A stretch of DNA of 64,000 nt from contig JAMDBT010000047.1 of NCBI GenBank assembly GCA_023487205.1, positions 16,879 to 80,878 on the forward strand, read 5' to 3'. The notes under the pieces were generated by a model. It ran no database searches. It was given only the letters and a program-made list of their open reading frames with translations, and had not been told where the DNA came from. Both the position numbers and the translations under genes were made by a program. Of this stretch, positions 22,304 to 36,673 are shown one piece after another (position 1 is the stretch's first letter; each line of letters begins with the position of its first letter). This DNA comes from Thermoplasmatota archaeon (GTDB taxonomy: Archaea > Thermoplasmatota > Thermoplasmata > Thermoplasmatales > Thermoplasmataceae).

Positions 22304-22319
22304 GCCGACCGATGCAGGA

Positions 22320-23390
22320 TCACTGTTCCGGTTCCAGAAGCGGTTCCTCGCTCAGTACTCTTCCTTCTTGCTTCCCGTCCTTGTCAAAAAGGTAAATTCG
22401 TCTCCTGTCCGCATACAGAGTGGTCGTCTTTCCCTCATTGACGAGGCTGGAGTCGTTTATGTGCACGTAGAAATACACCAGTTCATTTCCCATTTCAGAC
22501 TGCACCAGAACCTCGTTCCCCAGAAGATTCTTCATCAGCACCTTCACTTCAATGGATATGATGTTTGCCGAGTCCTTCGGTTTCCTCACGAACATTGCTC
22601 TTGGCCTTATCCCGGCATATGTATGTGTCTCCGCTTCAAGGGCCCTCTTTGCCTCTTCTGATTCCAGGATGTTCATGGATGGGTTGCCCACAAAGGATGC
22701 CACGAAGGTATTGACAGGGCTATTGAATATTTCCATTGGATGCCCCACCTGTTCAATCGTTCCGCTCCTGAATATTGCTATGCGGTTTCCAAGAGTCATT
22801 GCCTCCAGCTGATCGTGGGTGACGTAGACCGTGGTGACTCCGGTTTCCATATGTATCCTTTTCAGCTCAAACCTTACGGCATCTCGAAGCTTGGCGTCCA
22901 GATTGCTCAACGGTTCGTCCATCAGGAGAAGCTTGGGATCCTTGACCAGTGCCCTTGCAATGGCTACTCTCTGCCTTTCGCCCCCGGAAATTTGGTGAGG
23001 CTTCTTCGCAACAAGATGGTCAATGGCCAGGAACTTTGAAATCTCCTTGACCTTGTCCCTGATGTACTGCATTTCCCTATGGGCGATTCTCAAGGGAAAT
23101 GCTATGTTCTCGAAAACAGTCATATGGGGGTAGAGTGCATAATCCTGGAATACCATGGATATGTTCCTCTTGCTTGGCGGTCTATCACTGATGTCTTCCC
23201 CATCCATGAGTACTTTTCCGGAAACCTGTCTCATAAGTCCAGATATTACCCTGAGCGTGGAGGTCTTTCCACAACCCGAAGGTCCAAGCAATACAAAGAA
23301 GTCCTTGTCATCGATGTAAAGGTTCACATCCTTCAATATTTCATTTTTTCCAGCCGTGAGATATATTTTCTCAAGTTCCAGTGTTGTCAT
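22320..23390 (-). CDS. sugar ABC transporter ATP-binding protein (MalK/UgpC-like)
   Basis: Walker A GPSGCGKTS, signature ISGGERQRVAIARAL, Walker B LLLMDEPLS, C-terminal regulatory domain. Confidence 0.93.
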   Translation of the reverse strand: MTTLELEKIYLTAGKNEILKDVNLYIDDKDFFVLLGPSGCGKTSTLRVISGLMRQVSGKVLMDGEDISDRPPSKRNISMVFQDYALYPHMTVFENIAFPLRIAHREMQYIRDKVKEISKFLAIDHLVAKKPHQISGGERQRVAIARALVKDPKLLLMDEPLSNLDAKLRDAVRFELKRIHMETGVTTVYVTHDQLEAMTLGNRIAIFRSGTIEQVGHPMEIFNSPVNTFVASFVGNPSMNILESEEAKRALEAETHTYAGIRPRAMFVRKPKDSANIISIEVKVLMKNLLGNEVLVQSEMGNELVYFYVHINDSSLVNEGKTTTLYADRRRIYLFDKDGKQEGRVLSEEPLLEPEQ

Positions 23391-23408
23391 ACCATCATCT
23401 CCCCAAGT

Positions 23409-24230
23409 TCATTTCAACGCCCCGGCAATTATGTTACTTCTCATGTATTTCTGCAACACCAGAACCAGGACGATGACCGGAATCGTCATTATGAGCGAGA
23501 AAGCGTCATCCGCCGGCAATCCCCCAATTCCCCTGGCCACGTTCTGGTAGATCAGCACTGGTATGGTGGTGTACAGCGGAGATATGAGTTCTGCAAGTAT
23601 GAACTCGTCCCAGGAGAAAAGCCAGGCAAGAATAAAGGCTACAAAGATACCTGTCAGTGCTAACTGGAGGTCTATGTAGAAGAATGCCTGGAACTTACTT
23701 GCCCCATCGATTTGTGCGGACTCTCCCAGCCTGGGCGGAATGCTGCGAAAAGCTCCCACCAGAACGTACGTCACCAGCGGAACTGCTATGGAAGATTGCG
23801 CTAACGCAATGCCCAATGGGTTATTGATAAGGTGCAATCTTGCCATAGCGCTCGCAAGCGGGACTCCAATTTGTACTTCCGGTATCATCTGCGTAACGAA
23901 CAGAAAAATAATCACCAGGTACGACGCTTTCCTTGGCATCTTCGATATGGTGTAAGCCGCAGGTGCTCCCAGGGCGAGGGTTATTCCGGATACCATGAAA
24001 GCCACTTCCAGGCTCAGGAAAAAGTGAGGAAGGAAATTGTAGTTGTTCAGGACGACGATGAGAGAATAGGGAGAAATGCTGGTCGGAATCAGTGCGGGGC
24101 GAGGCCTGAATATTTCCGAGGGCGGCGCGAAAGCGACGAGGAATATGAGATAGATTGGGAACAAGACAAAAACGGCCACGATTGCCATGGCAAGGTACCA
24201 AAGCGATTTCTTTGCGATTTCTGTTTTCAC
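23409..24230 (-). CDS. sugar ABC transporter permease (MalG-like)
   Basis: 273 aa with 6 TM segments and an EAA-like loop (ESAQIDGASKFQAFFYI). Confidence 0.9.
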   Translation of the reverse strand: MKTEIAKKSLWYLAMAIVAVFVLFPIYLIFLVAFAPPSEIFRPRPALIPTSISPYSLIVVLNNYNFLPHFFLSLEVAFMVSGITLALGAPAAYTISKMPRKASYLVIIFLFVTQMIPEVQIGVPLASAMARLHLINNPLGIALAQSSIAVPLVTYVLVGAFRSIPPRLGESAQIDGASKFQAFFYIDLQLALTGIFVAFILAWLFSWDEFILAELISPLYTTIPVLIYQNVARGIGGLPADDAFSLIMTIPVIVLVLVLQKYMRSNIIAGALK

Positions 24231-25093
24231 CTGTTCACGTCCCCTAATTTTCCCGAAACATAGACGTATATGACAACGAACATAAGCACGATTGCGAGAA
24301 GTACGGTCGCAGCCGCTGCCGACATGTTGGCTGACCCCAGCGAGAACGTTTCGTATAGGTTGAAAGAAAATGTGCCAAGGAATTGAAGGTTGGATCCGAC
24401 GAGAATCAGCGGAAGGGATAGTATGTTGAATTCAGACACGGCCCTGATAATCATTGCGATCATAATAAAAGGGTAAAGGTTTGGCATCGTGATCCTCCTA
24501 AATTGCTGCAACGGGGTGGCTCCATCCATTGCTGCTGCCTCATACTGGCTCTCCGGGATCATTTGCAAGCCTCCCAGAAGGATGAGCATTATGAGGGGAA
24601 AGGTTTTCCAGGAATCGGCCAAGGCGACTGAAACGAACGCATAATTTCCAAGAGTCCAATCAATCTGATGGCTGGAAAGTCCAATGCCGGTGAGGAATTC
24701 GTTGGCATATCCGTTCGTGGCCGTGAAAATGAACGAGAATGCAATTGCCGAAACGACAGTTGCGACGCCGTAGGGAAGCATCACAATCGACCTGAAGGCC
24801 GATCTCCCTCGAATGGACCTGTTAAGAAGTAGCGCCGTAAACAATGCAAGGAAGAACTCAATTGCGAGCGCAAACGGTACGTAAAGAAAAGTGTTGAAAG
24901 TCACGGTCTGAAGGGATGGAGTATAGGTCTGGAGTTGTTGGTAGTTATACAGGCTATATTGCCCTAGGAGAAGGAACCCACTGTTCACTCCCACTATGAT
25001 TGGATAAATGTTCAGCAGTCCAACAAAAATTAATAATGGAAGTATAAAAATTACTTCCATCAGGTTATTCTTTAGTTGCCTCACTATCTGCAT
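24227..25093 (-). CDS. sugar ABC transporter permease (MalF-like)
   Basis: 288 aa with an EAA loop (YEAAAMDGATPLQQFRRITMP). 4-nt overlap with the downstream permease gene. Confidence 0.9.
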   Translation of the reverse strand: MQIVRQLKNNLMEVIFILPLLIFVGLLNIYPIIVGVNSGFLLLGQYSLYNYQQLQTYTPSLQTVTFNTFLYVPFALAIEFFLALFTALLLNRSIRGRSAFRSIVMLPYGVATVVSAIAFSFIFTATNGYANEFLTGIGLSSHQIDWTLGNYAFVSVALADSWKTFPLIMLILLGGLQMIPESQYEAAAMDGATPLQQFRRITMPNLYPFIMIAMIIRAVSEFNILSLPLILVGSNLQFLGTFSFNLYETFSLGSANMSAAAATVLLAIVLMFVVIYVYVSGKLGDVNR

Positions 25094-25108
25094 TAACGCT
25101 CCACCGGA

Positions 25109-26530
25109 TTATGTTGGTCCTGTATAGTCTCCGGTGGGGTAGATCGCCCCCGCAGCGTACTCAGAGGGATACGATGTTGACGAATAGTATATCTCCAGAT
25201 AGTTGTACATGTTGGCGTGCGCAGTGTTCAGCGCCGTAGTTACGTTGCCTCCGGCCATTATTACTGCCCAGGCACTGTCAAAGTAATTGTCCCACTGGGT
25301 CATCCAAGGCACTGCCGGCCTGAATATGCCATGCGCTTCCTCAAGCTGGATCATTTTGAATGGAAGCCCGCTTGCTGCGCTGGAGTTGTAAGCTGCAGTG
25401 TTCACGACGGGCCAGGTGAGATTCTGTAATAGCTGTGTCTGTACGCTGGCCGAGTCAAGGAACTGGATATAATGGGTGGCAGCCCAGAGGTTTGAGGTGT
25501 GGTTTACGATACCGAGCACATCGCCTCCAACGATGAACTGGGAATCATTATTGGGCCCTGCGAAGACCTGGTTGATCCCAAGGTTGTGGGTAGAACTCTG
25601 GGTGGTGTTGTTCCAGCCGAGACCTGACATGGTCGTTGTGATGTAGGGCCACTGATCTATGTACTGGTACGAATTCGATGCAAGCCCCTTATAGCTGCCC
25701 CAGTAGCCGGTGCTGTAATGCGGAGACATAAGACCCTTGTTTTCCATGTTCTGAAGGAAAGTCAACGCCTTGATATCGCCGGTCGTGTTGAAAGCCATGG
25801 GATTTCCGTTAAATTCGGCCATCCACTGGAATACTTGTGTTGGAGTGCTTGCACCCTGGTGGCCCTGCATGTTGAATGGTTGAGCATATCCGCTCGAATT
25901 CAGGGCTTCCATATCAATCATGAGGTTGGTGGTGTTCGTCGGTTGCGGAAGAACTAAGTGTTTAAGCGTCCCGACTGCCGTGAGGGCAGACTGGTTGTAA
26001 TAGGCTAGCTGAACATTTCCTCTGATGGGGAAGAAATAGTATGTACTGCCAAACATGCCCTCGTGGTAATACGCAGGTATTATGGATCCGTATGACGAGG
26101 GAACGGACGATGTGTTGCCTGTAATCGGCTCAAACTGGGAAAGATAAGGGTTCAGTGGCATCACGAGTCCGCTTGCAACAAGTGGCCCCGTGAACCCATT
26201 GTCCTGCTGAACTACGTCAATGGTAGGGCTGGTCCCCTCAGATTGTAACGTTGATACGACAGAGGTCGCCGATTCGGTGGTGAACTGCAGAGTCAGGTTT
26301 GGATAAGCCTTCTCGAATTCGGGCAATATTGTATTCTGGTAAAACTTTAACTCGCTTCCAGATAGGGATATGTTCACGGTAAGGGTTTGCTTGGCGTGAG
26401 GACTACTTGAGAGTACAAAATAAACTCCCGTCCCCGCCACTATGAGTATTACAACAATTATTCCTATTATTGCATACTTCAGTTTTGCCTTTTTTTCACC
26501 CGTTGGGGCTACTTCGGATGCATTATTCAT
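25109..26530 (-). CDS. extracellular solute-binding protein of the ABC importer (N-terminally membrane-anchored)
   Basis: 473 aa, first gene of the operon, with one N-terminal TM segment (YAIIGIIVVILIVAGTGVYFVL). Ser/Thr/Asn-rich. The family call rests on context and weak motifs. Confidence 0.75.
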   Translation of the reverse strand: MNNASEVAPTGEKKAKLKYAIIGIIVVILIVAGTGVYFVLSSSPHAKQTLTVNISLSGSELKFYQNTILPEFEKAYPNLTLQFTTESATSVVSTLQSEGTSPTIDVVQQDNGFTGPLVASGLVMPLNPYLSQFEPITGNTSSVPSSYGSIIPAYYHEGMFGSTYYFFPIRGNVQLAYYNQSALTAVGTLKHLVLPQPTNTTNLMIDMEALNSSGYAQPFNMQGHQGASTPTQVFQWMAEFNGNPMAFNTTGDIKALTFLQNMENKGLMSPHYSTGYWGSYKGLASNSYQYIDQWPYITTTMSGLGWNNTTQSSTHNLGINQVFAGPNNDSQFIVGGDVLGIVNHTSNLWAATHYIQFLDSASVQTQLLQNLTWPVVNTAAYNSSAASGLPFKMIQLEEAHGIFRPAVPWMTQWDNYFDSAWAVIMAGGNVTTALNTAHANMYNYLEIYYSSTSYPSEYAAGAIYPTGDYTGPT

Positions 26531-27134
26531 TGCATAAAACTCATGCAGGTCATCGTATAAATACTTGATTCGAAAAACTATATTGCTGAAGTAATGTCTA
26601 GCAAATTATAATTATCCGCATGATTTCTTGGTGGAAATTCGAGTTGAGGGCAAATCCTTTTCCTTTGCGGCAAGAATCAATACGCATGACTGACATTTTG
26701 AAGACAATGGATATGTCCGATAGGGGACAAAGGGGGAGAAAGCCACCATGCGTATGGCTGTGAGTTACATACATACAACCGAACTTTAGATCGGGGAACT
26801 GCAGCGGCCGGGAAAGTGGTTATACCTGGAGATGTAAACATAACCAGGGTGCGTTGTGCTGACAACAGTGGTTCCAAGGTTCCTCCGGCATTGGTTTTGT
26901 TGGAGGAGCCTGGCAACGCTGTGATTGGGGGCATATCGAAAGATGTACGCATGAAAGGGTTACCATTTCCACGCAAGATGGTGAGGGCAGGACAGCGTAA
27001 TCAAGTTGAATTACATATTCACTGTAACAAATGACACAATTCTGAAGACCGTCCTGTATCTGATCAGGGAAAAGGGGCAATTGGTTCTGAAAGAGATTAT
27101 CAGGAAACTACGCGGCATGATTGCCTGACAAGAA

Positions 27135-27208
27135 CGGGTCCGGAGGGGTTCGAACCCCCGACCTATGGATTAAGAGTCCATCGCTCTACCTGGCTAAGCT
27201 ACGGACCC
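27135..27208 (-). tRNA. tRNA-Lys (anticodon CUU)
   Basis: The reverse complement folds as GGGUCCG / GCUU..GAGC / AUGGA-CUCUUAA-UCCAU / GGGGG-UUCGAAC-CCCUC / CGGACCC-G. No intron and no encoded CCA. Confidence 0.9.
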
Positions 27209-27308
27209 GAGCGGACTGGATATGTAACTCCGGATTAAAATATTGTCACGAACCATGCTGGGGAAAAAACCCACACCAACACCTGGCTCCTTCATCAAAG
27301 GCATCAAT

Positions 27309-30300
27309 CTACTTACAGTGTGCCTTCTGAAACTTCTGGAGCATAAGCTGTACGGGCTGAATATTTTCCTTTTGTGAATGTATCGCGGCAGATTCGCAGA
27401 GCTGCTTCATAGTGACGTTCTTTGATTTGGCTGCTTTCACCAGCGTTGCTAATCCATCGTCGGAGGTCCGGCGCATGGCGAGTATCTCCGCGTAATTGAC
27501 CCATACTTCAGGCATATTGGGAGCTAGTTCAGAAAGGGTCTCGTAGGTTGAAAGTGCCTCGTCCAGCCTTCCGACTTCCTTGAGGAGCTGAACTTTTGCG
27601 TTGTAATACTCTAACTTTGTCTTGTCAAGACTGATTGCTAGATCATATTCCGCAAAGGCGGAATCTATATCTTCCATTTCCTTCAGCGCTTCGGCCTTCT
27701 GGAAGTGAAAATCAGCCTTGTTTTCCAGAGAGATTGCCTCGTCATATTGCTTGATTGCCTCGTCGTACTTCTTCAGTTTAAAGAGAGCAGTCCCTTTCAG
27801 GGAATGTGCTTCCGCCGATTTTGGATTGAGTTCTATCACACGGTCATAGGAGTCAACGCTTTCCTTTACCCTTCTGGTCCTGATCTTCAATTGACCTAGC
27901 GCCATATGAAATTCCGGGGCTTCAGGCTGAAGTTCCACCGCTGTATTGAACTCCTTAAGGGCTTCGTCAAACCGTCCCTTGTCCTGGAGCATTTCGCCGT
28001 ATGCAAAACGGTACTGTGCTTTATTTGGCTGCATCTTTGCGGCCTGCTCATATTCCTTAAGCGCATCGTCAACTCTTCCGGCAGAGGCGAATATCTCCGC
28101 CAGGGCAAAGTGGCTCTCAGCCGACGCAGAACCAGATGATCCAGCAATAGAATTAAGTGCCTCAACCGCAGCATCGATATCCCCCGAGGCAGCCAGGGCC
28201 TTCGCCTTCTTCATTACAAGGTCCCCACTGTCCTTGGAGAGTTCGATTGCAGCATCAAGCTCCGCAATGGACTCCTTTGCCCTTCCGTTATCTGCCAGAA
28301 AGTCAGCCTTTTCTGCGTGGAACTCAGGATTTCCCGGGTTAAGTGCAATGGCGCGATCAAATTCCTCTTCCGCATTATCTGGACGCCCCATCTTGAGGTA
28401 AATCCTTCCCAGGGTGGCTGAAGGCTTTCCGTCACTCGGGTTCAGTGTGATTGCTTTCTGTACCTCCTTTATGGCATCTTCATAGTTCCCCAACTTGCTG
28501 AGCGCGCTTCCCTTGGCCAGGTAATACTCATAGTTCTCATCGTCCCCGCTTATGGCCAGATCGTATTCCTTTAATGCACCATCCAGGTCCGAAGAGAGAT
28601 CCAGACTCTGTGCAAGGTCGAAATGATACGCAGTATTTGCAGGGTCCATGGATACCGCCTCTCCAAACTCTCTGGAAGCCTCCCTATATCGCCCAAGCTG
28701 AACCAGGGCTCTTCCGAGGAAATATCGTACTGGCGCTTCCCTTGGCTTCTTGGTCGCTGCCTCCTCGAGCACTTGGAGCGCATTTCTGGTGTCCTCGTTC
28801 CAGAGAAGCATGCGTCCGTACTCCAGCACGTACAGCCAGTTATCCGGTTCGAGGTCAAAAGCAGTTTTCACCGCAGACAGCGCGTCCTTCTTCTTTCCCT
28901 TGCGTTCCAGAACCTGGGCTTTGTGCAGGTACAGATCAGACTGGGTTGGAGAAATGATTATGGCGTCTTCAAAGAGCTTCTGCGCCTGGTCAAATCTCCC
29001 CTCTGAAGTGTAAGCTATGCCAAGCTTGTCGAGATACGCAACGTTCTGCCCCATAAGGCTGACCGCAGATTCCAGGTATTTTATTGATTGCTCCAGCTTG
29101 CCGGAATCAAACAGCAGCCCCCCAAGGGTGGAGACGTACTCCGGATTCATGGGATCCATCGACGATGCTTTCTTCAGGTCGGAAATACCCTCGTCAAACC
29201 GCCCCATCTCGATCAGAAGCTTGCCTTTATTGAACCATATCGATGGTTCTTCGTGGCCAGCCGATATAATCTGCTCGAAAGCAGTCAGTGCTTCTGCCCC
29301 CTTCCCCGCTTTTACCAGTATCCGCGCCTTCTTGGATTTCAGGGCGAGGTTTTCCTGATCCATCTTGATCGCCTTATCAATGTCCTTTAGCGATCCGCTT
29401 ATCTCACCCAGTTCGGCCTTGCAGACTGCTCTTTGCGCAAGCAGAATGGGATCACCTGGCGACTCATCCAGAACCTTTTCAATATTCTTCAGAGCCTCAG
29501 CGAAGTGTCCCGTTTCTGTCTGGACAAATCCCAGATCCTTCGTAATAGTGAGATTCCTTGGTGACAATTTTGCCGCTACGGTAAGATCCACTTCTGCTTC
29601 CGGGAGACGCTTCATTTCGATGAGAAGTTTTGCCCGCTTCTCCCGGTACTCGGGGTTATTCTGATCAAGCTTTATGAGATAGTCGTACCTTTCGACGGCC
29701 TTGGCCTTCACTCCATAAAGTTCAGAAACATATTTCCTGTTTTCAGGAGCAAGGGAGACAGCAATCTCATATTCCCTGAGGCTCTCGTCTGCCTTCTTCT
29801 GCTCAAGCATGAGCTTTCCGCGTCCATAGTGAAACTCTGCGTTGTCCTTGTCCAGTTCAATTGACGCGTCGATCTCTGCCATGGCATCGTCCAGCTTCCC
29901 CTGCTGCTGCAGCATCCCTGCAAGCTTGTAGTGGTAACTCGGGTCTCCCGGTCTCAGGTTTATCGCTTCCCTGCACTCCCTTATGGCATCGTCTGTCCTG
30001 CCCTGCTTGGAGAGTGCCTCAGCCTTCCTGAACCTGAACTCAGGATTCTTTGGTGACAGCCTTATTGCCTCGTTGGCCTCCTTGAGTGCCTCCTCATGCC
30101 TGCCTATCTCAGACATGGCCATGGCCTTCCTGCTATGGAACTCGGCCATGTTGGGGTTTATGCGTATTGCCTCCTCATACTCCTTCAGGGCAGGATCCGT
30201 CTTTCCTTCCCTGAGGTACAGTATGCCCTTCTCCACGTGGTACTGCGGCTCGTTGGGGTTGAGGGATATGGCCCTGTCGAACTCCTTCACTGCATCATTG

Positions 30301-33300
30301 TGCCTGCCCATCTCAACGTAAAGCCTTCCCAGGTTGCTGTAGTACAGGGATTCCTTAGGGGCGATCGAAATTGCGGTTTCGAACTCTTTCAAGGCTTCAT
30401 CGTACCTGTGCATCTCCATGAAAGCGTTCCCCTTTCCAACGCGGTAATCCGCAACCTTCGGGTCCAGTTCCACCGATCTCTCGAACTCCCTGAGGGACTC
30501 ATCGGTTCTCGAGGTTTTCAGGAGCGTCTCTCCCATCCTCGCATGGTACTCCGGGTTATCCGGATCAAACCTCACGGCCTCTCCGAACTCCTTGGAGGAC
30601 TCCCTGTTAATTCCCATCCTGGAGAGCACAATTCCACGGTAGTAGTGCACCAGGGGGTCATTGTAATTCAGCTTAACTGCAGAATTGCACTCCTCAAGCG
30701 CATCGTCAAGCATCCCAAGCCTGTTCAGCACCTCAGCCTTGTCCCTGTGGTATTCCCACCTGTCGGGATCAAGCTTCACAGCTTCGTTGAGTGCCTTGAG
30801 GGCTTCATTCTCCTCCTTAGTGGCAAGCATTATCCTGGATCTGAGATAGTAAGCGCTGGCGTCCTTCGGGTTCATCCTCAGGGACTCATTTACCTCCTTG
30901 AGTGCTGCGTTCTGCTTGCCAACGCTCAGGAGAAATCCCGCGAGGGCAACCTTAAGTTTCGTGTCCTTTGGCCTGGCCTTCACTGCCTGCGTCAACTCTT
31001 CAACGGCGTCGTCGACTCTGCCAAGCTGGGAAAGAAGGTTGGCCTTTCCGGCCCTGTATTCTGCATCGCCTGCGCTATAATCGATTGCTGACTGGTACTC
31101 CTGCAGCGCAAGTTCCTTTTCGCCAATTTTTTCAAGCAGCCTAGCTTTCTCGCTGTGCGGCAACGGGTCTGTCCTGATTATATCGATCGCCCGATCAAGC
31201 TCGGCAATGGCTTCCTTCACCCTCTCCTGGCTTGCAAGTATCCGAGACTTGCTGAGATACGCGGATGAGTCCTTGGTTCCAAGCTGTATGGCCTTTTCAT
31301 AGTCCTCAATGGCAAGGTCCTCCTTCCCCATGGTCTTCTTTATGGCGGCACTTCTGGAGTAATATGCCGGGTTGTTCGGGTCAAGGGACATCGCTTTCTC
31401 CAGGTATTCAAGAGCCTCCTTGTTTTCCCCTTTGGCCATCAAAATTCCGGATATCTCCCACGGGTACTTCGGATCCTTGCTGTCAAGGGCAACGGCTTTC
31501 TTGTATTCGGCCAGGGCCTCGTCGGTTTTACCCATCTGGGCGAGCACGTAGGCTATATCCGCATGGTGAGTCGGATCTTTAGGTTCTTTCTTGGCAGACC
31601 CTCTGTATTCCTTCAGGGCGTCGCCCAGCAATGCATCAATCTCTGTCCCACTCTCCCCGCCAACGATATCAATTACGTCGCTGTACTCCTTCAGGGCTTT
31701 ATTGGGGTCGCCTATCTTTAACAGCAACTCTCCCCTCTTGTACCTGTAGCTGCTCTCGGCAGGGTCAAGAGTGATGGCCTGGTTGAGTTCCGCAAGTGAG
31801 TTTTCAAAATCCTCTCTTTCCGCTAGGATTAAGGCCTTATGGTAATGGAAAAATGCGTTTCCAGGGTCCAATTTCATGACTTCGTCAAGGTCCCTGATCG
31901 CATCGTCATATCTCCCCATTTTAATCATGCACATGGCTTTGGACCCGTAGCTCTCCGAGTCCTTCGGATTCAGAGCGATTGCCTTTTCGTAGCTGGATAT
32001 GGCGCCAGAATAGTCGCCTTTCTGCATCAGGATTTTCCCGTTCATGGAGAAAACCTTGGGGTCGTCCTTGATGACTTGCATTGCTGCATCCACTTCCTTC
32101 TTCGCTTCATCCAGCCTGTCCAGCCTCAGGAGAATTGACGCTTTCAGGGCGTGAAGGTCGCCGGTTTCCTTTATTTCGAGGGCTTTGTTGCAAGTAGAAA
32201 GTGCGTCATCAATCTTTCCAGTATCCCTGTAGAGCAGCGCAAGATTGGCAAGGCTGTTCACGTTTTCAGGATCAATATTGATGGAATTCTGAAGATCTGA
32301 CGATGCCTGTTTCAGCCTGCCCGTCCGGAGGAATGCCATCCCTCTTCCGGAGAAATACGGGGCCATCTTTGGATTCGTGGAGATCGCGGCATTGTACTGT
32401 TCGATTGCATCTTCGTACTTTCCCGCCTCGTAGAGGGCGTCAGCATACTCCGCCCTGTAAGAGTCGTTGGCGGGGGACGCCTCAATTGCTGTCTTTAACT
32501 CGTGTACCGCCTTCTCGTAATTCCTCGTCTTTCTGTACAGCTTTCCGACCGCAAAGTGGTACTCCGGATCTGCCGGATCAATCTCCATGGCATTCCCATA
32601 TTCCCTCATTGCCTCGTCCAGCTTCCCCTGCTGCTGCAGCATCCCTGCAAGCTTGTAGTGGTAACTCGGGTCTCCCGGTCTCAGGTTTATCGCTTCCCTG
32701 CACTCCCTTATGGCATCGTCTGTCCTGCCCTGCTTGGAGAGTGCCTCAGCCTTCCTGAACCTGAACTCAGGATTCTTTGGTGACAGCCTTATTGCCTCGT
32801 TGGCCTCCTTGAGTGCCTCCTCATGCCTGCCTATCTCAGACATGGCCATGGCCTTCCTGCTATGGAACTCGGCCATGTTGGGGTTTATGCGTATTGCCTC
32901 CTCATACTCCTTCAGGGCAGGATCCGTCTTTCCTTCCCTGAGGTACAGTATGCCCTTCTCCACGTGGTACTGCGGCTCGTTGGGGTTGAGGGATATGGCC
33001 CTGTCGAACTCCTTCACTGCATCATTGTGCCTGCCCATCTCAACGTAAAGCCTTCCCAGGTTGCTGTAGTACAGGGATTCCTTAGGGGCGATCGAAATTG
33101 CGGTTTCGAACTCTTTCAAGGCTTCATCGTACCTGTGCATCTCCATGAAAGCGTTCCCCTTTCCAACGCGGTAATCCGCAACCTTCGGGTCCAGTTCCAC
33201 CGATCTCTCGAACTCCCTGAGGGACTCATCGGTTCTCGAGGTTTTCAGGAGCGTCTCTCCCATCCTCGCATGGTACTCCGGGTTATCCGGATCAAACCTC

Positions 33301-35597
33301 ACGGCCTCTCCGAACTCCTTGGAGGACTCCCTGTTAATTCCCATCCTGGAGAGCACAATTCCACGGTAGTAGTGCACCAGGGGGTCATTGTAATTCAGCT
33401 TAACTGCAGAATTGCACTCCTCAAGCGCATCGTCAAGCATCCCAAGCCTGTTCAGCACCTCAGCCTTGTCCCTGTGGTATTCCCACCTGTCGGGATCAAG
33501 CTTCACAGCTTCGTTGAGTGCCTTGAGGGCTTCTTCACGTTCCCTGAACTGAATAAGAATCTGAGACTTGTGGTAGAAGTACGAGGCGTTGGACGGTTCC
33601 ATCTTTATTGCCTCGTTGATGTCTTTCAGTGCCTCGTTGGTTTTTCCGATGTGCATGTTCGACAAGGCCCTGAGGCTCTTAACCTCGTGATCTCTTGGGT
33701 TCTTGACAATAATGAAATTAAAATCAGCAAGTGCCTCTTCGTACCTGTTGAGGTTGAAGTAGCAACTCGCTCTCTGCTTCCTGTACTCCGGATTTCCATT
33801 ATCCAGCTTAACGGCTTCAAGCATTTCAGGTAAAGCGTCCTGGTATCTCGAGAAGCGCATCAGCACCATTGCCTTATTATACCGGTACTCCGGCTCCTTG
33901 GGATTCTTCCTGATCGCGTCGTCATATTCCTTCAGGGCATCGTCGAACTTTCCGCTCTTGAGAAGTATGAGGCCCTTGTTGTACTGATAACGCGGATTTG
34001 TCCTGTCGAGAACTATCGCTTCTTCAATTTCCCTGAGGGCTTCCGTCGGCTTCTCCATGTCACTGAGCAGGAGAGCTTTGGTGCTGTGCACTTCTGGATT
34101 GTTCTTGTCCAGCACTATGCAGGTGTCAAGCTCGTCGATTGCTTCCTGAAACAGGTTCAGTTTCTGCTCGATTTCTGCTGTCCGGATATGATATGTAAGA
34201 TTGTTCGGGTCTCTCTTTACCGCTTCAGCAAGTTCCTTGAGAGCCTCCTGGTATTTTCCAATGTCCTGAAGCAGAGAGGAACGCTTGAAGTGAAACTCTG
34301 CAGTATCGGCACCGAGTTTCACGATCTTGTCGTACTCTTCTATTGCCTCATTGTGCATCTTGAGTTCGTCAAGAAGGACGGCGCGAAGTATGTGGTACTC
34401 GGGATTCCTGTCGTCGAGTTTTATCGCAGTGACAAGTTCGTTTATTGCCAGCTCCTTCTTGTTCAGCTTTACGAGGTTGACGGCCTTTCTGTAATAATAA
34501 TCCGGGATATTGGACTCAAACTTCAGTGCTACGTCTATACTCTTCAGGGCATCTGCGTACTTTTCCATGTCTCCCAGTATTGTCGCTTTCTCGAAGTGTG
34601 CGCCAGCCAGGTTAGCGTTAAGGCGAAGCGCCTCATCCACCTCCCTGAGTCCCTCGCCTAGCCTTCCCAACTTGTGTAATATAATCCCCCTGTCCAGATG
34701 GAACTGGAAGTCCGTCTGGTCAAGTTTCACTGCTTCATTGAGTTCCCAAAGGGATTCTTCAAGCCTATTGAGTTTCAACAACGCAAGGCCGAAGTCCCTG
34801 TGGAGTGCAGGGTCCAGGTGGTCAAGCACGATGGATTCCTTATATTCCCTAAGAGCTTCATCATCCCGTCCCAGTCCCATCAGCGCGTTCGCCTTGTTGT
34901 TGTGGTATGTAGGGTCTCTTGAGTTCAGACTGAGGGCATCGTTGTAGTAGGCCAGCGCCTTATCGAGGCTTCCGGATTCGTACATGATGTTCCCGTAATC
35001 GTTGTAATAGTCCGGATCACGGGGGTTTATCTTGATCGCTTCATTCAGTTCCTTGATGGCGTCTTCTCTTCTTCCCAGTTCATTTATGACCAGCGCTCGG
35101 TTGTAATGGTAGGAAGCTTCCCCCGGGGCCATCCTGAGCGCCACGTTAAAATCAGAGAGAGCCTCCTGAAGCTTGCTCAGGTTGTAATAGGCAAGTCCTC
35201 TGTTATAGTAATATGTAGCGTCATTTGGGTTCAGGGTTATTGCCTTGTTGAACTCGTCAATAGCCTGTTCAATCTTGCCGAGGTTGAAAAGAGTAACACC
35301 CCTGTTATTGTGAGATGAGGGGTTCTTTGGGTCCTTCTGGACATCTCTCGTGTACCGCTGAAGAGCGTCATCCTGGGATTCGCTAACATCGGAATCCTGG
35401 TCCATCTCCTCTTCATCAAATTCTGGTTCTGCCATCAGCGCACATCCATCAATTAACTTATTACCAATGGTACGAAATACATTAAGGTTGCTGGTTCTGT
35501 CAAGCTCCAGATTGGTGAACGAAGGCATGGTTTGCGCACAACCTACGAATTCCGAGTTAAGGTTATATAAGAACTTCCGCTCACGGACAAGAACCAT
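27309..35597 (-). CDS. giant tetratricopeptide-repeat protein (2762 aa as drawn, roughly 75-80 tandem TPR units)
   Basis: One uninterrupted ORF with a 34-aa periodicity throughout (..A...Y..AI.L.P....Y...G..L..LG...EA..). It has an acidic N-terminus (MAEPEFDEEEMDQDSDVSESQDD). No TM segment, signal peptide or enzymatic motif was seen. The true start is possibly ATG 35528 or 35435. Confidence 0.85.
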   Translation of the reverse strand: MVLVRERKFLYNLNSEFVGCAQTMPSFTNLELDRTSNLNVFRTIGNKLIDGCALMAEPEFDEEEMDQDSDVSESQDDALQRYTRDVQKDPKNPSSHNNRGVTLFNLGKIEQAIDEFNKAITLNPNDATYYYNRGLAYYNLSKLQEALSDFNVALRMAPGEASYHYNRALVINELGRREDAIKELNEAIKINPRDPDYYNDYGNIMYESGSLDKALAYYNDALSLNSRDPTYHNNKANALMGLGRDDEALREYKESIVLDHLDPALHRDFGLALLKLNRLEESLWELNEAVKLDQTDFQFHLDRGIILHKLGRLGEGLREVDEALRLNANLAGAHFEKATILGDMEKYADALKSIDVALKFESNIPDYYYRKAVNLVKLNKKELAINELVTAIKLDDRNPEYHILRAVLLDELKMHNEAIEEYDKIVKLGADTAEFHFKRSSLLQDIGKYQEALKELAEAVKRDPNNLTYHIRTAEIEQKLNLFQEAIDELDTCIVLDKNNPEVHSTKALLLSDMEKPTEALREIEEAIVLDRTNPRYQYNKGLILLKSGKFDDALKEYDDAIRKNPKEPEYRYNKAMVLMRFSRYQDALPEMLEAVKLDNGNPEYRKQRASCYFNLNRYEEALADFNFIIVKNPRDHEVKSLRALSNMHIGKTNEALKDINEAIKMEPSNASYFYHKSQILIQFREREEALKALNEAVKLDPDRWEYHRDKAEVLNRLGMLDDALEECNSAVKLNYNDPLVHYYRGIVLSRMGINRESSKEFGEAVRFDPDNPEYHARMGETLLKTSRTDESLREFERSVELDPKVADYRVGKGNAFMEMHRYDEALKEFETAISIAPKESLYYSNLGRLYVEMGRHNDAVKEFDRAISLNPNEPQYHVEKGILYLREGKTDPALKEYEEAIRINPNMAEFHSRKAMAMSEIGRHEEALKEANEAIRLSPKNPEFRFRKAEALSKQGRTDDAIRECREAINLRPGDPSYHYKLAGMLQQQGKLDEAMREYGNAMEIDPADPEYHFAVGKLYRKTRNYEKAVHELKTAIEASPANDSYRAEYADALYEAGKYEDAIEQYNAAISTNPKMAPYFSGRGMAFLRTGRLKQASSDLQNSINIDPENVNSLANLALLYRDTGKIDDALSTCNKALEIKETGDLHALKASILLRLDRLDEAKKEVDAAMQVIKDDPKVFSMNGKILMQKGDYSGAISSYEKAIALNPKDSESYGSKAMCMIKMGRYDDAIRDLDEVMKLDPGNAFFHYHKALILAEREDFENSLAELNQAITLDPAESSYRYKRGELLLKIGDPNKALKEYSDVIDIVGGESGTEIDALLGDALKEYRGSAKKEPKDPTHHADIAYVLAQMGKTDEALAEYKKAVALDSKDPKYPWEISGILMAKGENKEALEYLEKAMSLDPNNPAYYSRSAAIKKTMGKEDLAIEDYEKAIQLGTKDSSAYLSKSRILASQERVKEAIAELDRAIDIIRTDPLPHSEKARLLEKIGEKELALQEYQSAIDYSAGDAEYRAGKANLLSQLGRVDDAVEELTQAVKARPKDTKLKVALAGFLLSVGKQNAALKEVNESLRMNPKDASAYYLRSRIMLATKEENEALKALNEAVKLDPDRWEYHRDKAEVLNRLGMLDDALEECNSAVKLNYNDPLVHYYRGIVLSRMGINRESSKEFGEAVRFDPDNPEYHARMGETLLKTSRTDESLREFERSVELDPKVADYRVGKGNAFMEMHRYDEALKEFETAISIAPKESLYYSNLGRLYVEMGRHNDAVKEFDRAISLNPNEPQYHVEKGILYLREGKTDPALKEYEEAIRINPNMAEFHSRKAMAMSEIGRHEEALKEANEAIRLSPKNPEFRFRKAEALSKQGRTDDAIRECREAINLRPGDPSYHYKLAGMLQQQGKLDDAMAEIDASIELDKDNAEFHYGRGKLMLEQKKADESLREYEIAVSLAPENRKYVSELYGVKAKAVERYDYLIKLDQNNPEYREKRAKLLIEMKRLPEAEVDLTVAAKLSPRNLTITKDLGFVQTETGHFAEALKNIEKVLDESPGDPILLAQRAVCKAELGEISGSLKDIDKAIKMDQENLALKSKKARILVKAGKGAEALTAFEQIISAGHEEPSIWFNKGKLLIEMGRFDEGISDLKKASSMDPMNPEYVSTLGGLLFDSGKLEQSIKYLESAVSLMGQNVAYLDKLGIAYTSEGRFDQAQKLFEDAIIISPTQSDLYLHKAQVLERKGKKKDALSAVKTAFDLEPDNWLYVLEYGRMLLWNEDTRNALQVLEEAATKKPREAPVRYFLGRALVQLGRYREASREFGEAVSMDPANTAYHFDLAQSLDLSSDLDGALKEYDLAISGDDENYEYYLAKGSALSKLGNYEDAIKEVQKAITLNPSDGKPSATLGRIYLKMGRPDNAEEEFDRAIALNPGNPEFHAEKADFLADNGRAKESIAELDAAIELSKDSGDLVMKKAKALAASGDIDAAVEALNSIAGSSGSASAESHFALAEIFASAGRVDDALKEYEQAAKMQPNKAQYRFAYGEMLQDKGRFDEALKEFNTAVELQPEAPEFHMALGQLKIRTRRVKESVDSYDRVIELNPKSAEAHSLKGTALFKLKKYDEAIKQYDEAISLENKADFHFQKAEALKEMEDIDSAFAEYDLAISLDKTKLEYYNAKVQLLKEVGRLDEALSTYETLSELAPNMPEVWVNYAEILAMRRTSDDGLATLVKAAKSKNVTMKQLCESAAIHSQKENIQPVQLMLQKFQKAHCK
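29887..30806. repeat. copy A of a 920-bp perfect direct repeat inside the TPR gene
   Basis: Base-for-base identical, by eye, to 32614-33533. The offset is exactly 2727 bp (909 codons). Confidence 0.9.
32614..33533. repeat. copy B of a 920-bp perfect direct repeat inside the TPR gene
   Basis: Identical to 29887-30806. Shadow ORFs 29983-30321 and 32710-33048 translate identically, and the protein segment EALKALNEAVKLDPDRW...MLQQQGKLD occurs twice. Confidence 0.9.
35563..35576 (+). promoter_or_regulatory. putative TATA box/core promoter of the ribosomal-protein operon (possibly bidirectional)
   Basis: TTATATAAGAACTT lies ~110 nt upstream of the rpl3 ATG. It is the same 14-mer as at the tatA promoter. 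The TTATATAA core is palindromic and also sits ~35-43 nt upstream of the alternative TPR-gene start at 35528. Confidence 0.35.
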
Positions 35598-35683: not shown

Positions 35684-36673
35684 ATGGCGACACCTCATCA
35701 CCCAAGACGTGGGTCTAAAGGATACTATCCAAGAGTTCGAGCGAAGCGGGAACACGGCTTCATCAGGTCATGGCCAGAGCTGGACGGAAAGGCAAAAATT
35801 CAGGCATTTGCCGGTTACAAGGTTGGCATGACTCATGTGGAGATGGTGGACTACAGAAAGAATAGTGTAACGGCTGGCCAGAGCGTTTTCAGTGCGGTGA
35901 CCATAGTGGAAGTACCTCCCCTGAAGGTGGCTGCAATCAGATTTTATTCTGAAGGGTCGGAGGGTTTGTACGTTTCCGCAGAAAAATGGGCTGAAAAGCT
36001 TGACGACTCCCTCCTGCTTCGAATACCTCGCACTGTTAACAGGAAGAAATCAGCACTGCCGGAAGACCTGTCAGACGTGCGCCTGGTGGTTCACACAGAG
36101 CCTGCCTTGGTAACCGGTATTCCCAAGAAAGTTCCGGAAATCTTTGAAGTGCGAATTGGAGGCGACAGCATGGAAAGCAGGGTGCAGTACGCGGAGTCAA
36201 AACTCGGCCAGGATCTCAGATTTACCGACTTTTCTGGGTCGGGAAAATTTGTGGACGTTATCGGCGTGACAAAGGGAAAGGGGTTTACCGGTCACGTTGA
36301 GAGATTTGGGGTAAAACTGCTCCCAAGGAAGAACAGAAAGCATAGAAGAATGATTGGTACCCTAGGGCCGTGGCATCCAAACTTCGTTAAGGAAACGGTA
36401 CCACAGGCCGGTCAAATGGGCTATCAGCAGCGGACCGCCCACAATATCAGGGTCATTAAGTATGGCACTGCAGAGGAGTCTTCGTCGGTGAACGTGAAAG
36501 GTGGGAACGTTGGATACGGGCTTGTGAGAAACGATTTCGTGCTCCTGCACGGGTCAATCCCGGGGCCAAGCCACAGGCTGGTGAAGATGAGAGACCCCGC
36601 CAGGCAGAAATCTCCTGACGTGAAGGACCTCAAGGTTTCATACATTTCAGTTGAATCAAAGCAAGGTGATTAA
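35684..36673 (+). CDS. rpl3: 50S ribosomal protein L3 (uL3)
   Basis: MATPHHPRRGSKGYYPRVRA.. and ..FAGYKVGMTHV.., first gene of the cluster. Confidence 0.95.
   Translation: MATPHHPRRGSKGYYPRVRAKREHGFIRSWPELDGKAKIQAFAGYKVGMTHVEMVDYRKNSVTAGQSVFSAVTIVEVPPLKVAAIRFYSEGSEGLYVSAEKWAEKLDDSLLLRIPRTVNRKKSALPEDLSDVRLVVHTEPALVTGIPKKVPEIFEVRIGGDSMESRVQYAESKLGQDLRFTDFSGSGKFVDVIGVTKGKGFTGHVERFGVKLLPRKNRKHRRMIGTLGPWHPNFVKETVPQAGQMGYQQRTAHNIRVIKYGTAEESSSVNVKGGNVGYGLVRNDFVLLHGSIPGPSHRLVKMRDPARQKSPDVKDLKVSYISVESKQGD

What the first reader, a model, noticed from the sequence alone, without database searches (positions are those of the whole stretch)
29887..33533. Perfect 920-bp in-frame direct repeat (9 TPR units) inside the giant TPR gene, spaced exactly 2727 bp apart
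Segments 29887-30806 and 32614-33533 are identical at every base I compared. Sequence diverges immediately on both sides. The offset of 2727 bp equals 909 codons, so the frame is preserved, and protein residues ~689-995 reappear as ~1598-1904. The other TPR units in the gene are strongly diverged at the DNA level. Zero divergence over 920 bp therefore implies a very recent segmental duplication, ongoing gene conversion, or an assembly artefact. Such a repeat is also a substrate for recombination that would delete or amplify a 909-codon block, giving length-variable alleles.
Basis: seen in the sequence. Interest (0 to 1): 0.65.

Follow-up and report, generated by a model that had tools for sequence, protein, structure and literature searches.

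The report
Duplicated nine-TPR block in archaeal gene
A giant repeat-protein gene of an acid-mine Thermoplasmata archaeon really does contain two identical in-frame copies of a 920-bp block, confirmed in independent assemblies; this is an ordinary kind of repeat-gene expansion, with hints that the block is kept identical by gene conversion in related species too.

Summary
Window 29887-30806 and 32614-33533 are identical at 920 of 920 bases, 2727 bp (909 codons) apart. Both lie inside one minus-strand TPR gene (27309-35597; about 75 TPR units). Each copy is exactly nine units long and both start at the same TPR phase.

It is not a spurious duplication. Three same-species assemblies carry the same N-R-B-R-C layout without gaps. 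About 36 further contigs stop exactly one assembler k-mer (141 nt) inside the outer edge of copy A or copy B, which is the de Bruijn signature of a true repeat.

However, these are short-read graph assemblies, so perfect identity is partly by construction, and the number of R-B units is not verified.

In relatives, R is followed directly by the ortholog of the window's post-copy-B sequence (N-R-C). The spacer B has no ortholog or paralog, so a simple tandem duplication does not explain the layout.

Ten of 14 related-species contigs break at the orthologous R start. One of them re-enters an exact second copy of the R head. This suggests recurrent duplication or gene conversion of this block across the family.

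Kind: recent or homogenised intragenic block duplication in a repeat protein. Moderately interesting; not a new kind of system.

The parts
27309..35597 (-). Giant TPR gene. The longest ORF is 2762 aa. The likely start is M55 at 35435 (2708 aa). About 75 TPR units, an acidic N-terminal leader and a non-TPR C-terminal tail.
   Evidence: ORF list and translation. Pfam TPR_1/2/8/11/16/19 and related families, E down to 0. 72 units parsed. Orthologs align from aa 55 onward. Gene calls of 2708 aa (NCBI) and 2739 aa (JGI) on L111 and L112.
32614..33533 (-). Repeat copy A (R): aa 689-995, running from helix B of unit 18 to helix A of unit 27. It lies in the ancestral context on its N-terminal side.
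   Evidence: Exact identity to copy B. Orthologs L014, L016, L028, L031, L033, L015, L058 and L076 run collinearly from the N region into the R-equivalent. 17 same-species contigs end 141 nt into this copy.
29887..30806 (-). Repeat copy B (R'): aa 1598-1904. It lies in the ancestral context on its C-terminal side.
   Evidence: Exact identity to copy A. The sequence after it, including the non-TPR linker, is orthologous to what follows the single R-equivalent in L015 and L058. 18 same-species contigs start 141 nt inside its C-side edge, at window 30027.
30807..32613 (-). Spacer B: aa 996-1597, about 17.7 TPR units with two irregular spacers, lying between the two copies. Origin unknown.
   Evidence: No ortholog in any fetched locus (best 27-28%, which is generic TPR similarity). 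No significant paralogous diagonal inside the gene.
33534..35435 (-). N region: aa 55-688, 17.5 TPR units. This is the conserved core shared with orthologs.
   Evidence: 38-52% aa identity and collinear with 15 orthologous fragments.
28935..29886 (-). C1 region: aa 1905-2221. It contains the distinctive non-TPR linker ENRKYVSELYGVKAKAVERYDYLIKLD (window 29664-29744).
   Evidence: The linker and its flanks are orthologous to the sequence directly after the R-equivalent in L015 (39%, E 1.6e-20) and L058 (36%, E 8e-13).
27918..28934 (-). Possible ancient, diverged R-like block (R''): aa 2222-2560, units 61-70.
   Evidence: It is the best non-R' diagonal to R in the protein (7-unit BLOSUM score, top 1 of 1275; quantile 0.992-0.999). 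It lies where relative L015 has its exact second copy of the R head. In an untargeted shuffle test it is not significant, so it is only a lead.
35684..36673 (+). Ribosomal protein L3 gene, the first gene of the archaeal ribosomal-protein operon. It is divergent from the TPR gene and served as the anchor to fetch orthologous and same-species loci.
   Evidence: Pfam PF00297, E 2.9e-73. Anchor.

Best explanation
The two segments are a genuine, near-identical, in-frame duplicate of a nine-TPR block (R) inside a giant TPR scaffold gene of an uncultured acidophilic Thermoplasmata species. The layout is N-R-B-R'-C.

What is shown:
- The duplicate exists in the read data of many samples.
- It is fixed in the three spanning assemblies.
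- It starts and ends at the same point of the TPR helix pair, so the solenoid is continued seamlessly.
- It lengthens the protein by 909 residues relative to an N-R-C arrangement found in relatives.

What is inferred:
- The block arose, and stays identical, through homologous exchange between R-type blocks of the same gene, either unequal recombination or gene conversion, rather than through one simple tandem duplication.
- The same block is repeatedly involved in such exchanges in related species, producing orthologs of very different length.
- I put about 55% on long-term or recurrent homogenisation and about 30% on a single recent event in this species' lineage. The rest goes to copies that are similar but not truly identical and were collapsed by the assembler.

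The protein itself is most likely a cytoplasmic superhelical binding scaffold. Its ligand is unknown.
For: Exact 920/920 identity, in frame and at the same TPR phase.

Same-species support:
- L111 (GCA_023379545.1) and L112 (JGI 3300039716) are gapless 99.9% matches. Their two copies are identical to each other and to the window's, and the proteins are identical.
- Of 22 same-species contigs carrying L3, 17 end exactly 141 nt into copy A (MEGAHIT k141 naming), one ends 116 nt in and one 706 nt in.
- From the other side, 18 of 22 contigs start exactly 141 nt inside copy B.
- None shows a single-copy junction.

Layout in relatives:
- In L015 and L058 the R-equivalent is followed directly by the ortholog of the window's post-R' sequence, including a distinctive non-TPR linker.
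- L076 is a complete 1167-aa N-R-tail ortholog.

Evidence for recurrence:
- 10 of 14 species-level contigs, representing 9 of 10 lineages, end within -30 to +54 aa of the orthologous R start.
- No exact match longer than 65 nt is shared between non-sister lineages (95 nt between the sister pair L015/L016), so sharing between species does not explain these breaks.
- L015's last 113 nt are an exact in-frame copy of its own R-head region 1917 nt upstream. That segment is only about 96% identical to sister species L016.
- The window has a diverged R-like block at that same place.
- There are no intermediate-age block duplications.
- GC3 of R is 0.72, against at most 0.655 elsewhere in the gene.

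Fold: AlphaFold2 pLDDT 94.9 with 20 helices. The best PDB matches are the OGT TPR domain and consensus TPR superhelices.

Precedent: long-lasting gene conversion between neighbouring archaeal paralogs (mtrA; PMC4632066), and multi-unit internal duplication as the usual mode of repeat expansion (PMC1553488).
Against: All the assemblies appear to be short-read graph assemblies (MAG records with MEGAHIT k141 and SPAdes-style contig names). Identity of the interior of the two copies is therefore partly forced, and the number of R-B units (one or more) is not established.

The boundaries of identity are sharp, with no decay gradient, which fits one discrete event as well as it fits conversion.

Repeat number varies among orthologs. 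By the criterion of Persi et al. (PMC5120217), that favours plain birth-and-death over concerted evolution.

No relative has been seen with both copies on one contig, apart from the 113-nt stub in L015. L076, which is 87-88% identical to L021/L022, has a single R.

The origin of spacer B is unexplained under any model.

The GC3 signal rests on four genes.
Confidence: 0.8

Rival explanations
1. A single, very recent segmental duplication or insertion occurred in this species' lineage only. The ancestor was N-R-C. One event placed a copy of R together with B between R and C, and the copies have simply not had time to diverge. The contig breaks in relatives have other causes.
For: Boundaries are sharp, at the same phase, and span a whole number of units. 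The N-R-C order is seen in three other lineages. Ortholog length is variable, which fits birth-and-death (PMC5120217). Strain divergence of 0.1-0.3% predicts only about 1-3 differences in 920 nt, so zero is not surprising. Exact internal repeats are common in large TPR proteins: 45 of 239 have one of at least 25 aa.
Against: It gives no source for B, which has neither ortholog nor paralog. It does not explain why 9 of 10 related lineages break at the orthologous spot. It also does not explain L015's own exact second copy.
Confidence: 0.3
2. The two copies are similar but not identical in the cell (for example 95-99%). The assembler merged them into one graph edge and wrote that edge twice, so the 'perfect' repeat is an artefact of consensus although the duplication itself is real.
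For: The window belongs to a MAG. The three spanning contigs have copies identical to each other and across strains, with no SNP in R, while the flanks carry SNPs. One strain shows a SNP inside copy A (33078).
Against: The 141-nt exact contig ends at both outer edges show that at least the terminal k-mers are truly shared. Differences spaced closer than k would have let MEGAHIT contigs run further into R. 17 of 19 broken contigs stop at exactly 141 nt.
Confidence: 0.12
3. Spurious duplication: the genome has one R, and the assembler joined sequences from different strains or genes into N-R-B-R-C.
For: No long-read evidence is available. A 920-bp exact repeat is normally hard for short reads to span.
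Against: The same structure is recovered in three assemblies from different samples and pipelines. Branching occurs at both outer edges in dozens of contigs. B must be flanked by R on both sides for these graph branches to exist, which already implies two R copies in one molecule. No single-copy contig is seen among the 22 L3-anchored or the 22 SBP-anchored same-species contigs.
Confidence: 0.03

Closest known systems
Internal multi-unit duplication of repeat proteins (Bjorklund, Ekman and Elofsson 2006, PMC1553488)
   Same: Several repeat units are copied at once, in the middle of the array and in frame. The two blocks are far more alike than any other pair of units.
   Different: The classical model inserts the copy next to its origin. 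Here 602 residues of unrelated TPR sequence separate the copies, and that spacer has no detectable source.
Highly internally conserved TPR/ANK/WD repeats of fungal NLRs, which evolve in concert (PMC4986451, PMC12222747)
   Same: TPR units are kept near-identical at the DNA level within a gene. Repeat-number differences between relatives are attributed to recombination among the repeats. Short-read assemblies fail on them.
   Different: In the fungal case single units in tandem are homogenised, vary in number within a species, and show diversifying selection at ligand-contact positions. Here one nine-unit block is present twice, the rest of the array is fully diverged, no within-species length polymorphism was seen, and most SNPs seen among strains are synonymous (12 of 19; the 7 nonsynonymous ones all lie in one strain's C-terminal tract).
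Long-lasting gene conversion between mtrA-1 and mtrA-2 in methanogenic archaea (PMC4632066)
   Same: It is archaeal. Two nearby copies of a segment are kept alike by conversion over long times while the adjoining parts diverge.
   Different: That case involves two genes of an operon and was shown by phylogeny across many complete genomes. Here the copies lie within one gene, and the cross-species evidence is indirect (contig break points plus one 113-nt stub).
Superhelical TPR scaffolds: O-GlcNAc transferase TPR domain (1w3b, 6eou) and consensus CTPR8/16
   Same: Sequence match (E 1e-30 to 6e-62) and fold match (TM 0.63-0.74). The block is a regular A/B helix solenoid.
   Different: There is no catalytic or other non-TPR domain. 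The array has about 75 units instead of 8-16. The partner and function are unknown.

Membership tests
TPR repeat protein (Pfam clan TPR) | Tandem 34-residue units that match TPR profiles | tested here: met
   PF07719, PF13414, PF13432, PF00515 and related families, E from 0 to 1e-226. 72 units of 34 aa were parsed, mostly with no gap between them.
TPR repeat protein (Pfam clan TPR) | Helix-turn-helix pairs stacked into a right-handed superhelix | tested here: met
   AlphaFold2 model of aa 673-1012: pLDDT 94.9, 20 helices. Foldseek best hits are the OGT TPR domain and CTPR superhelices, E 5e-20 to 1e-17.
Intragenic block duplication of a repeat array | [quoted passage not shown] | tested here: met
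   100% identity against at most 58% elsewhere. The offset is 909 codons. Both edges fall at position 17 of a unit, so the block is 9.0 units.
Intragenic block duplication of a repeat array | The copy lies directly next to its source (tandem) | tested here: not met
   The copies are separated by 1807 nt (spacer B), which has no similarity to R or its flanks beyond the TPR background.
Concerted evolution / gene conversion of intragenic repeats | Paralogous blocks within a genome are more alike than the orthologous blocks of a sister species | tested here: met
   Window: R versus R' is 100%, against 45-47% aa to orthologs, which is trivially met. L015: its two R-head copies are identical at 113/113 nt, against about 96% to sister species L016.
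Concerted evolution / gene conversion of intragenic repeats | The duplication predates speciation, so both copies are present at corresponding positions in several species | tested here: inconclusive
   10 of 14 related contigs break at the orthologous R start, but their second copies are not on the fetched contigs. L015's second copy sits at a different place from the window's. L076 has a single R.
Concerted evolution / gene conversion of intragenic repeats | Repeat-number polymorphism within the species | tested here: not met
   All three spanning same-species contigs have two copies and the same length. No N-R-C junction was found among 22 + 22 contigs. Power is low, because short-read assemblies cannot report copy number.
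Concerted evolution / gene conversion of intragenic repeats | A compositional trace of biased conversion (raised GC3 in the converted tract) | tested here: inconclusive
   GC3 of R is 0.72 against at most 0.655 elsewhere in the gene. It is also raised in the R-equivalents of L015 and L007, slightly in L076, and not in L058.
Assembly artefact (spurious duplication) | The structure is present in only one assembly, with no graph branching at the repeat edges in other assemblies | tested here: not met
   Three spanning assemblies agree. 17 contigs end and 18 contigs begin exactly 141 nt inside the outer edges.

The most novel reading that the evidence does not exclude
The nine-TPR block R is a module kept in two or more near-identical copies across many Thermoplasmata species by long-term intragenic gene conversion. 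On this reading its copies act as portable homology for gain, loss and reshuffling of the intervening TPR cassettes. That would make this giant scaffold, encoded next to the ribosomal-protein operon, length-variable (1167 to 2708 aa or more) on evolutionary and possibly population time scales.
Probability: 0.3. Interest if true: 0.5.

Novelty: new member of a known kind. Interest (0 to 1): 0.33.

Why it matters
On its own this is a clean, verified example of how giant repeat proteins grow, by in-frame copying of a multi-unit block.

There is a practical lesson. This gene breaks almost every short-read assembly of the lineage at the same base. Most public MAGs therefore carry only truncated pieces of it, and the perfect identity seen in the few spanning contigs cannot be taken at face value.

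If the cross-species signal holds, the locus would be a rare archaeal case of long-term concerted evolution inside a single gene. It would also be a tractable system for studying ectopic recombination in uncultured acidophilic archaea. The function of the protein remains unknown.

Tried and rejected
1. Exact look-up of the TPR protein found nothing. Three word-index homology searches were run with the whole protein, the repeat unit and the N-terminus. They returned only generic TPR proteins of at most 35% identity, apart from one 324-aa N-terminal fragment.

2. An exhaustive HMMER search of 1.84 billion representatives with aa 996-2195 was also swamped by generic giant TPR proteins. None had the family's C-terminal tail.

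3. I ran exact look-ups of predicted products: the B unitig, the R unitig, a deletion allele, the full-length protein, and even the fragments called on L114 and L117. All were absent. The family appears not to be held in that collection, so the absence of a deletion allele carries no information.

4. I tested for older block duplications. The unit-by-unit identity matrix does not exceed a shuffled-order null (observed best 0.387 against a null 95th percentile of 0.383). The raised identity (0.38-0.47) next to copy A and copy B at the 2727 offset is only in-phase TPR background.

5. I tested whether B is a paralog of N or C. It is not, beyond 24-29% generic similarity.

6. I tested whether contig breaks in relatives come from sequence shared between co-occurring species. 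They do not: the longest exact match between non-sister lineages is 65 nt or less.

7. I considered whether L113 represents a strain class with a shorter identical tract. Finer grouping showed it is a single contig, so I dropped this and list it as unexplained.

8. No other TPR gene in the window could have donated B. There are no Rfam families in the region apart from two tRNAs.
Full report
**Observation**

Window 29887-30806 and 32614-33533 are identical at all 920 bases. The exact run cannot be extended by a single base on either side, and the offset is 2727 nt.

At this offset, identity is 0.52-0.55 in the 100-nt bins that straddle the two edges. It is 0.37-0.47 in the neighbouring sequence and about 0.25 further away. 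No other self-offset of the gene exceeds 58% over 300 nt. This is also the only repeat of at least 60 nt in the whole 64-kb window.

Both copies lie in one minus-strand ORF, 27309-35597. The whole ORF matches TPR profiles and parses into 72 clear 34-residue units plus a few degenerate ones.

Copy A is aa 689-995 and copy B is aa 1598-1904 of the longest ORF. Both edges of the identical tract fall at position 17 of a unit, so the block is exactly nine unit lengths.

An AlphaFold2 model of aa 673-1012 (pLDDT 94.9) has 20 regular helices. The two edges sit at the third residue of helix B of units 18 and 27. The junctions therefore continue the solenoid without a seam. The closest solved folds are the O-GlcNAc transferase TPR domain and consensus TPR superhelices.

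**Context and source**

The gene is transcribed divergently from the archaeal ribosomal-protein operon (L3, L4, L23, L2, S19, L22, S3 and so on). Downstream of it lie tRNA-Lys and a sugar ABC-transporter and glycosidase cluster.

The L3 protein places the organism in the Thermoplasmata. Exact look-ups show that the window's neighbouring proteins are NCBI MAG proteins of 'Candidatus Thermoplasmatota archaeon', locus-tag series M1151 and M1410. The window therefore comes from a metagenome-assembled genome, not from a closed isolate genome.

Orthologs, and the NCBI gene call, begin at M55 (35435). The real protein is probably 2708 aa.

**Is the duplication real?**

I used the neighbouring L3 and solute-binding-protein (SBP) genes as anchors to fetch same-species contigs from independent assemblies.

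- Two contigs, L111 (GCA_023379545.1, 95.7 kb) and L112 (JGI 3300039716, 318.7 kb), match window 25684-46673 without any gap at 99.9%. They carry both copies. The copies are identical to each other and to the window's, and the proteins are identical.
- Of 22 contigs carrying this L3, three span the gene. Seventeen carry a 681-aa N-terminal fragment, meaning they end exactly 141 nt into copy A. One ends 116 nt in and one ends 706 nt in.
- From the SBP side, 18 of 22 contigs begin at window 30027, exactly 141 nt inside the C-side edge of copy B.

One of the contigs that stop at this point carries a MEGAHIT 'k141' name (L114). A unitig that stops one k-mer inside a sequence is the de Bruijn signature of a branch at that point. 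Branches at both outer edges require B to be flanked by R on both sides, which means two R copies in one molecule. No contig shows a single-copy N-R-C junction. A spurious duplication is therefore very unlikely.

Two caveats follow from the same facts. First, in a graph assembly a repeat traversed twice is one edge written twice. Identity of the interior is thus partly by construction, and only the terminal 141 nt at each outer edge are independently shown to be shared. Second, the N-R-B-R-C path is the minimal traversal of a simple loop, so more than one R-B unit cannot be excluded.

**What relatives show**

L3 anchors from one genome per species and from JGI metagenomes gave 16 loci with an ortholog of the TPR gene upstream of L3.

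Only one is complete. L076 sits on a 270-kb contig and encodes 1167 aa. It has the same N-terminus, an R-equivalent (45% identity), a short tail and the same non-TPR C-terminal tail, and no internal exact repeat.

In L015 and L058, which run past the R-equivalent, it is followed directly by the ortholog of what follows copy B in the window. This includes a distinctive non-TPR linker (ENRKYVSELYGVKAKAVERYDYLIKLD) at the same distance. Both the N-to-R junction of copy A and the R-to-C junction of copy B are therefore shared with relatives. Relative to N-R-C, the window has an extra 909 codons consisting of B plus one R.

B has no ortholog in any fetched locus and no detectable paralog within the gene. 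One simple tandem duplication cannot produce this layout.

**Signs of a recurrent process**

All 14 orthologous contigs from species-representative genomes are cut by a contig end inside the gene. Ten of them, representing nine of ten lineages below 80% nucleotide identity, end within -30 to +54 residues of the site orthologous to the window's R start. Four of these end 43-54 residues past that site. This compares with 47 residues for the same-species MEGAHIT contigs.

No exact match longer than 65 nt is shared between non-sister lineages, so sharing between species does not explain the breaks.

L015 runs through its R-equivalent and about 300 residues of C1-like sequence. Its last 113 nt are then an exact, in-frame copy of its own sequence 1917 nt upstream, starting one unit before the window's R start. 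That segment is only about 96% identical in the sister species L016.

At the corresponding place the window has no exact copy. However, units 61-70 (aa 2222-2560) form the best-scoring non-R' diagonal to R in the whole protein, top 1 of 1275 seven-unit diagonals. This signal is not significant in an untargeted shuffle test.

There are no block duplications of intermediate age.

GC3 of R is 0.72, against at most 0.655 for any other 307-codon window. It is also raised in the R-equivalents of L015 and L007 but not L058.

Taken together, these points favour a picture in which R-type blocks of this gene repeatedly exchange sequence and mediate gain and loss of the TPR stretches between them. The evidence is indirect. 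Apart from the L015 stub, no relative has been seen with two copies on one contig. In addition, L076, which is 87-88% identical to L021/L022, has a single R.

**Against over-reading**

By the criterion of Persi et al. (PMC5120217), homogenised repeats combined with variable repeat number between species usually mean recent duplication, not concerted evolution.

Strain divergence of 0.1-0.3% predicts only about one to three differences in 920 nt. Zero differences therefore carries little weight.

Exact internal repeats are common in large TPR proteins. Forty-five of the 239 proteins pulled in by my searches have one of at least 25 aa. The longest of those is 218 aa, against 307 aa here. Short-read assemblies will under-report longer ones.

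Multi-unit duplication in the middle of an array is the usual way repeat proteins grow (PMC1553488). Long-lasting gene conversion between nearby archaeal paralogs has a precedent in mtrA (PMC4632066). Near-identical TPR units evolving in concert are known from fungal NLRs (PMC4986451).

**Verdict**

The artefact reading is rejected. Recent duplication and gene conversion remain unresolved, with a lean towards a recurrent homogenising process. The argument from perfect identity is weakened by how the contigs were built.

This is a new member of a known kind of event, with a modestly interesting comparative twist. The function of the giant TPR protein remains unknown. The best guess is a cytoplasmic superhelical scaffold, which rests only on its fold and on the lack of any other domain.

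Noticed in passing
window 29887-30806 and 32614-33533; L015 and L007 R-equivalents: The third-codon-position GC of the repeated block is the highest in the gene: 0.72 against at most 0.655 for any other 307-codon window. The orthologous block is likewise GC3-rich in L015 (0.71 vs 0.60) and L007 (0.59 vs 0.46), but not in L058. This may be a trace of GC-biased gene conversion.
   Followed up: partly
window 28668-29606 (TPR aa 1998-2310), strain L119 (GCA_027379965.1): One strain carries 10 SNPs packed into about 940 nt of the C-terminal part of the gene, and 7 of them are nonsynonymous. All 9 other SNPs seen in the gene among strains are synonymous. It looks like an imported or converted tract, or local positive selection.
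   Followed up: no
window 27309-35597 and loci L006-L033, L058, L076: Orthologs of this TPR gene sit divergently next to the L3 ribosomal-protein operon in only a subset of Thermoplasmata (16 of about 80 archaeal L3 loci). The closest L3 relatives (L001-L005) lack it in the available flank. Ortholog length ranges from 1167 to 2708 aa, with shared N- and C-termini.
   Followed up: partly
window 35435-35597: The start of the gene is ambiguous. The longest ORF starts at 35597 (M1), the JGI call starts at M24 (35528), and the NCBI call and all orthologs start at M55 (35435). With M55 the divergent intergenic region to L3 is 248 nt instead of 86 nt.
   Followed up: partly
protein collections (not a window coordinate): Every product of this gene, including the fragments that the contig look-up itself lists as called genes on L114 and L117, is absent from the exact-sequence collection, while all neighbouring proteins are present. 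Homology searches therefore could not find the family.
   Followed up: yes
L113/L122 (GCA_027379955.1 DAIEYY010000005.1), window 32828-33533: A single same-species contig runs 706 nt into copy A before ending, unlike the 17 contigs that stop at 141 nt. It carries the only SNP seen inside the repeat (33078 T>C, synonymous). The assembler is unknown and the cause is unexplained.
   Followed up: partly
window 20363-26530: Downstream of the TPR gene and tRNA-Lys (27134-27209) lies a minus-strand cluster. It comprises a solute-binding protein, two permeases, an ABC ATPase and a GDE_C / GH65-C-like glycoside hydrolase. One source names it a trehalose transport system and glycogen debranching enzyme.
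   Followed up: no
window 29983-33833, plus strand: Long antisense ORFs (112-336 aa) lie opposite the TPR gene, and those that fall inside the repeat recur in both copies. They match nothing tested and are best read as by-products of the codon bias of the TPR frame, not as genes.
   Followed up: no
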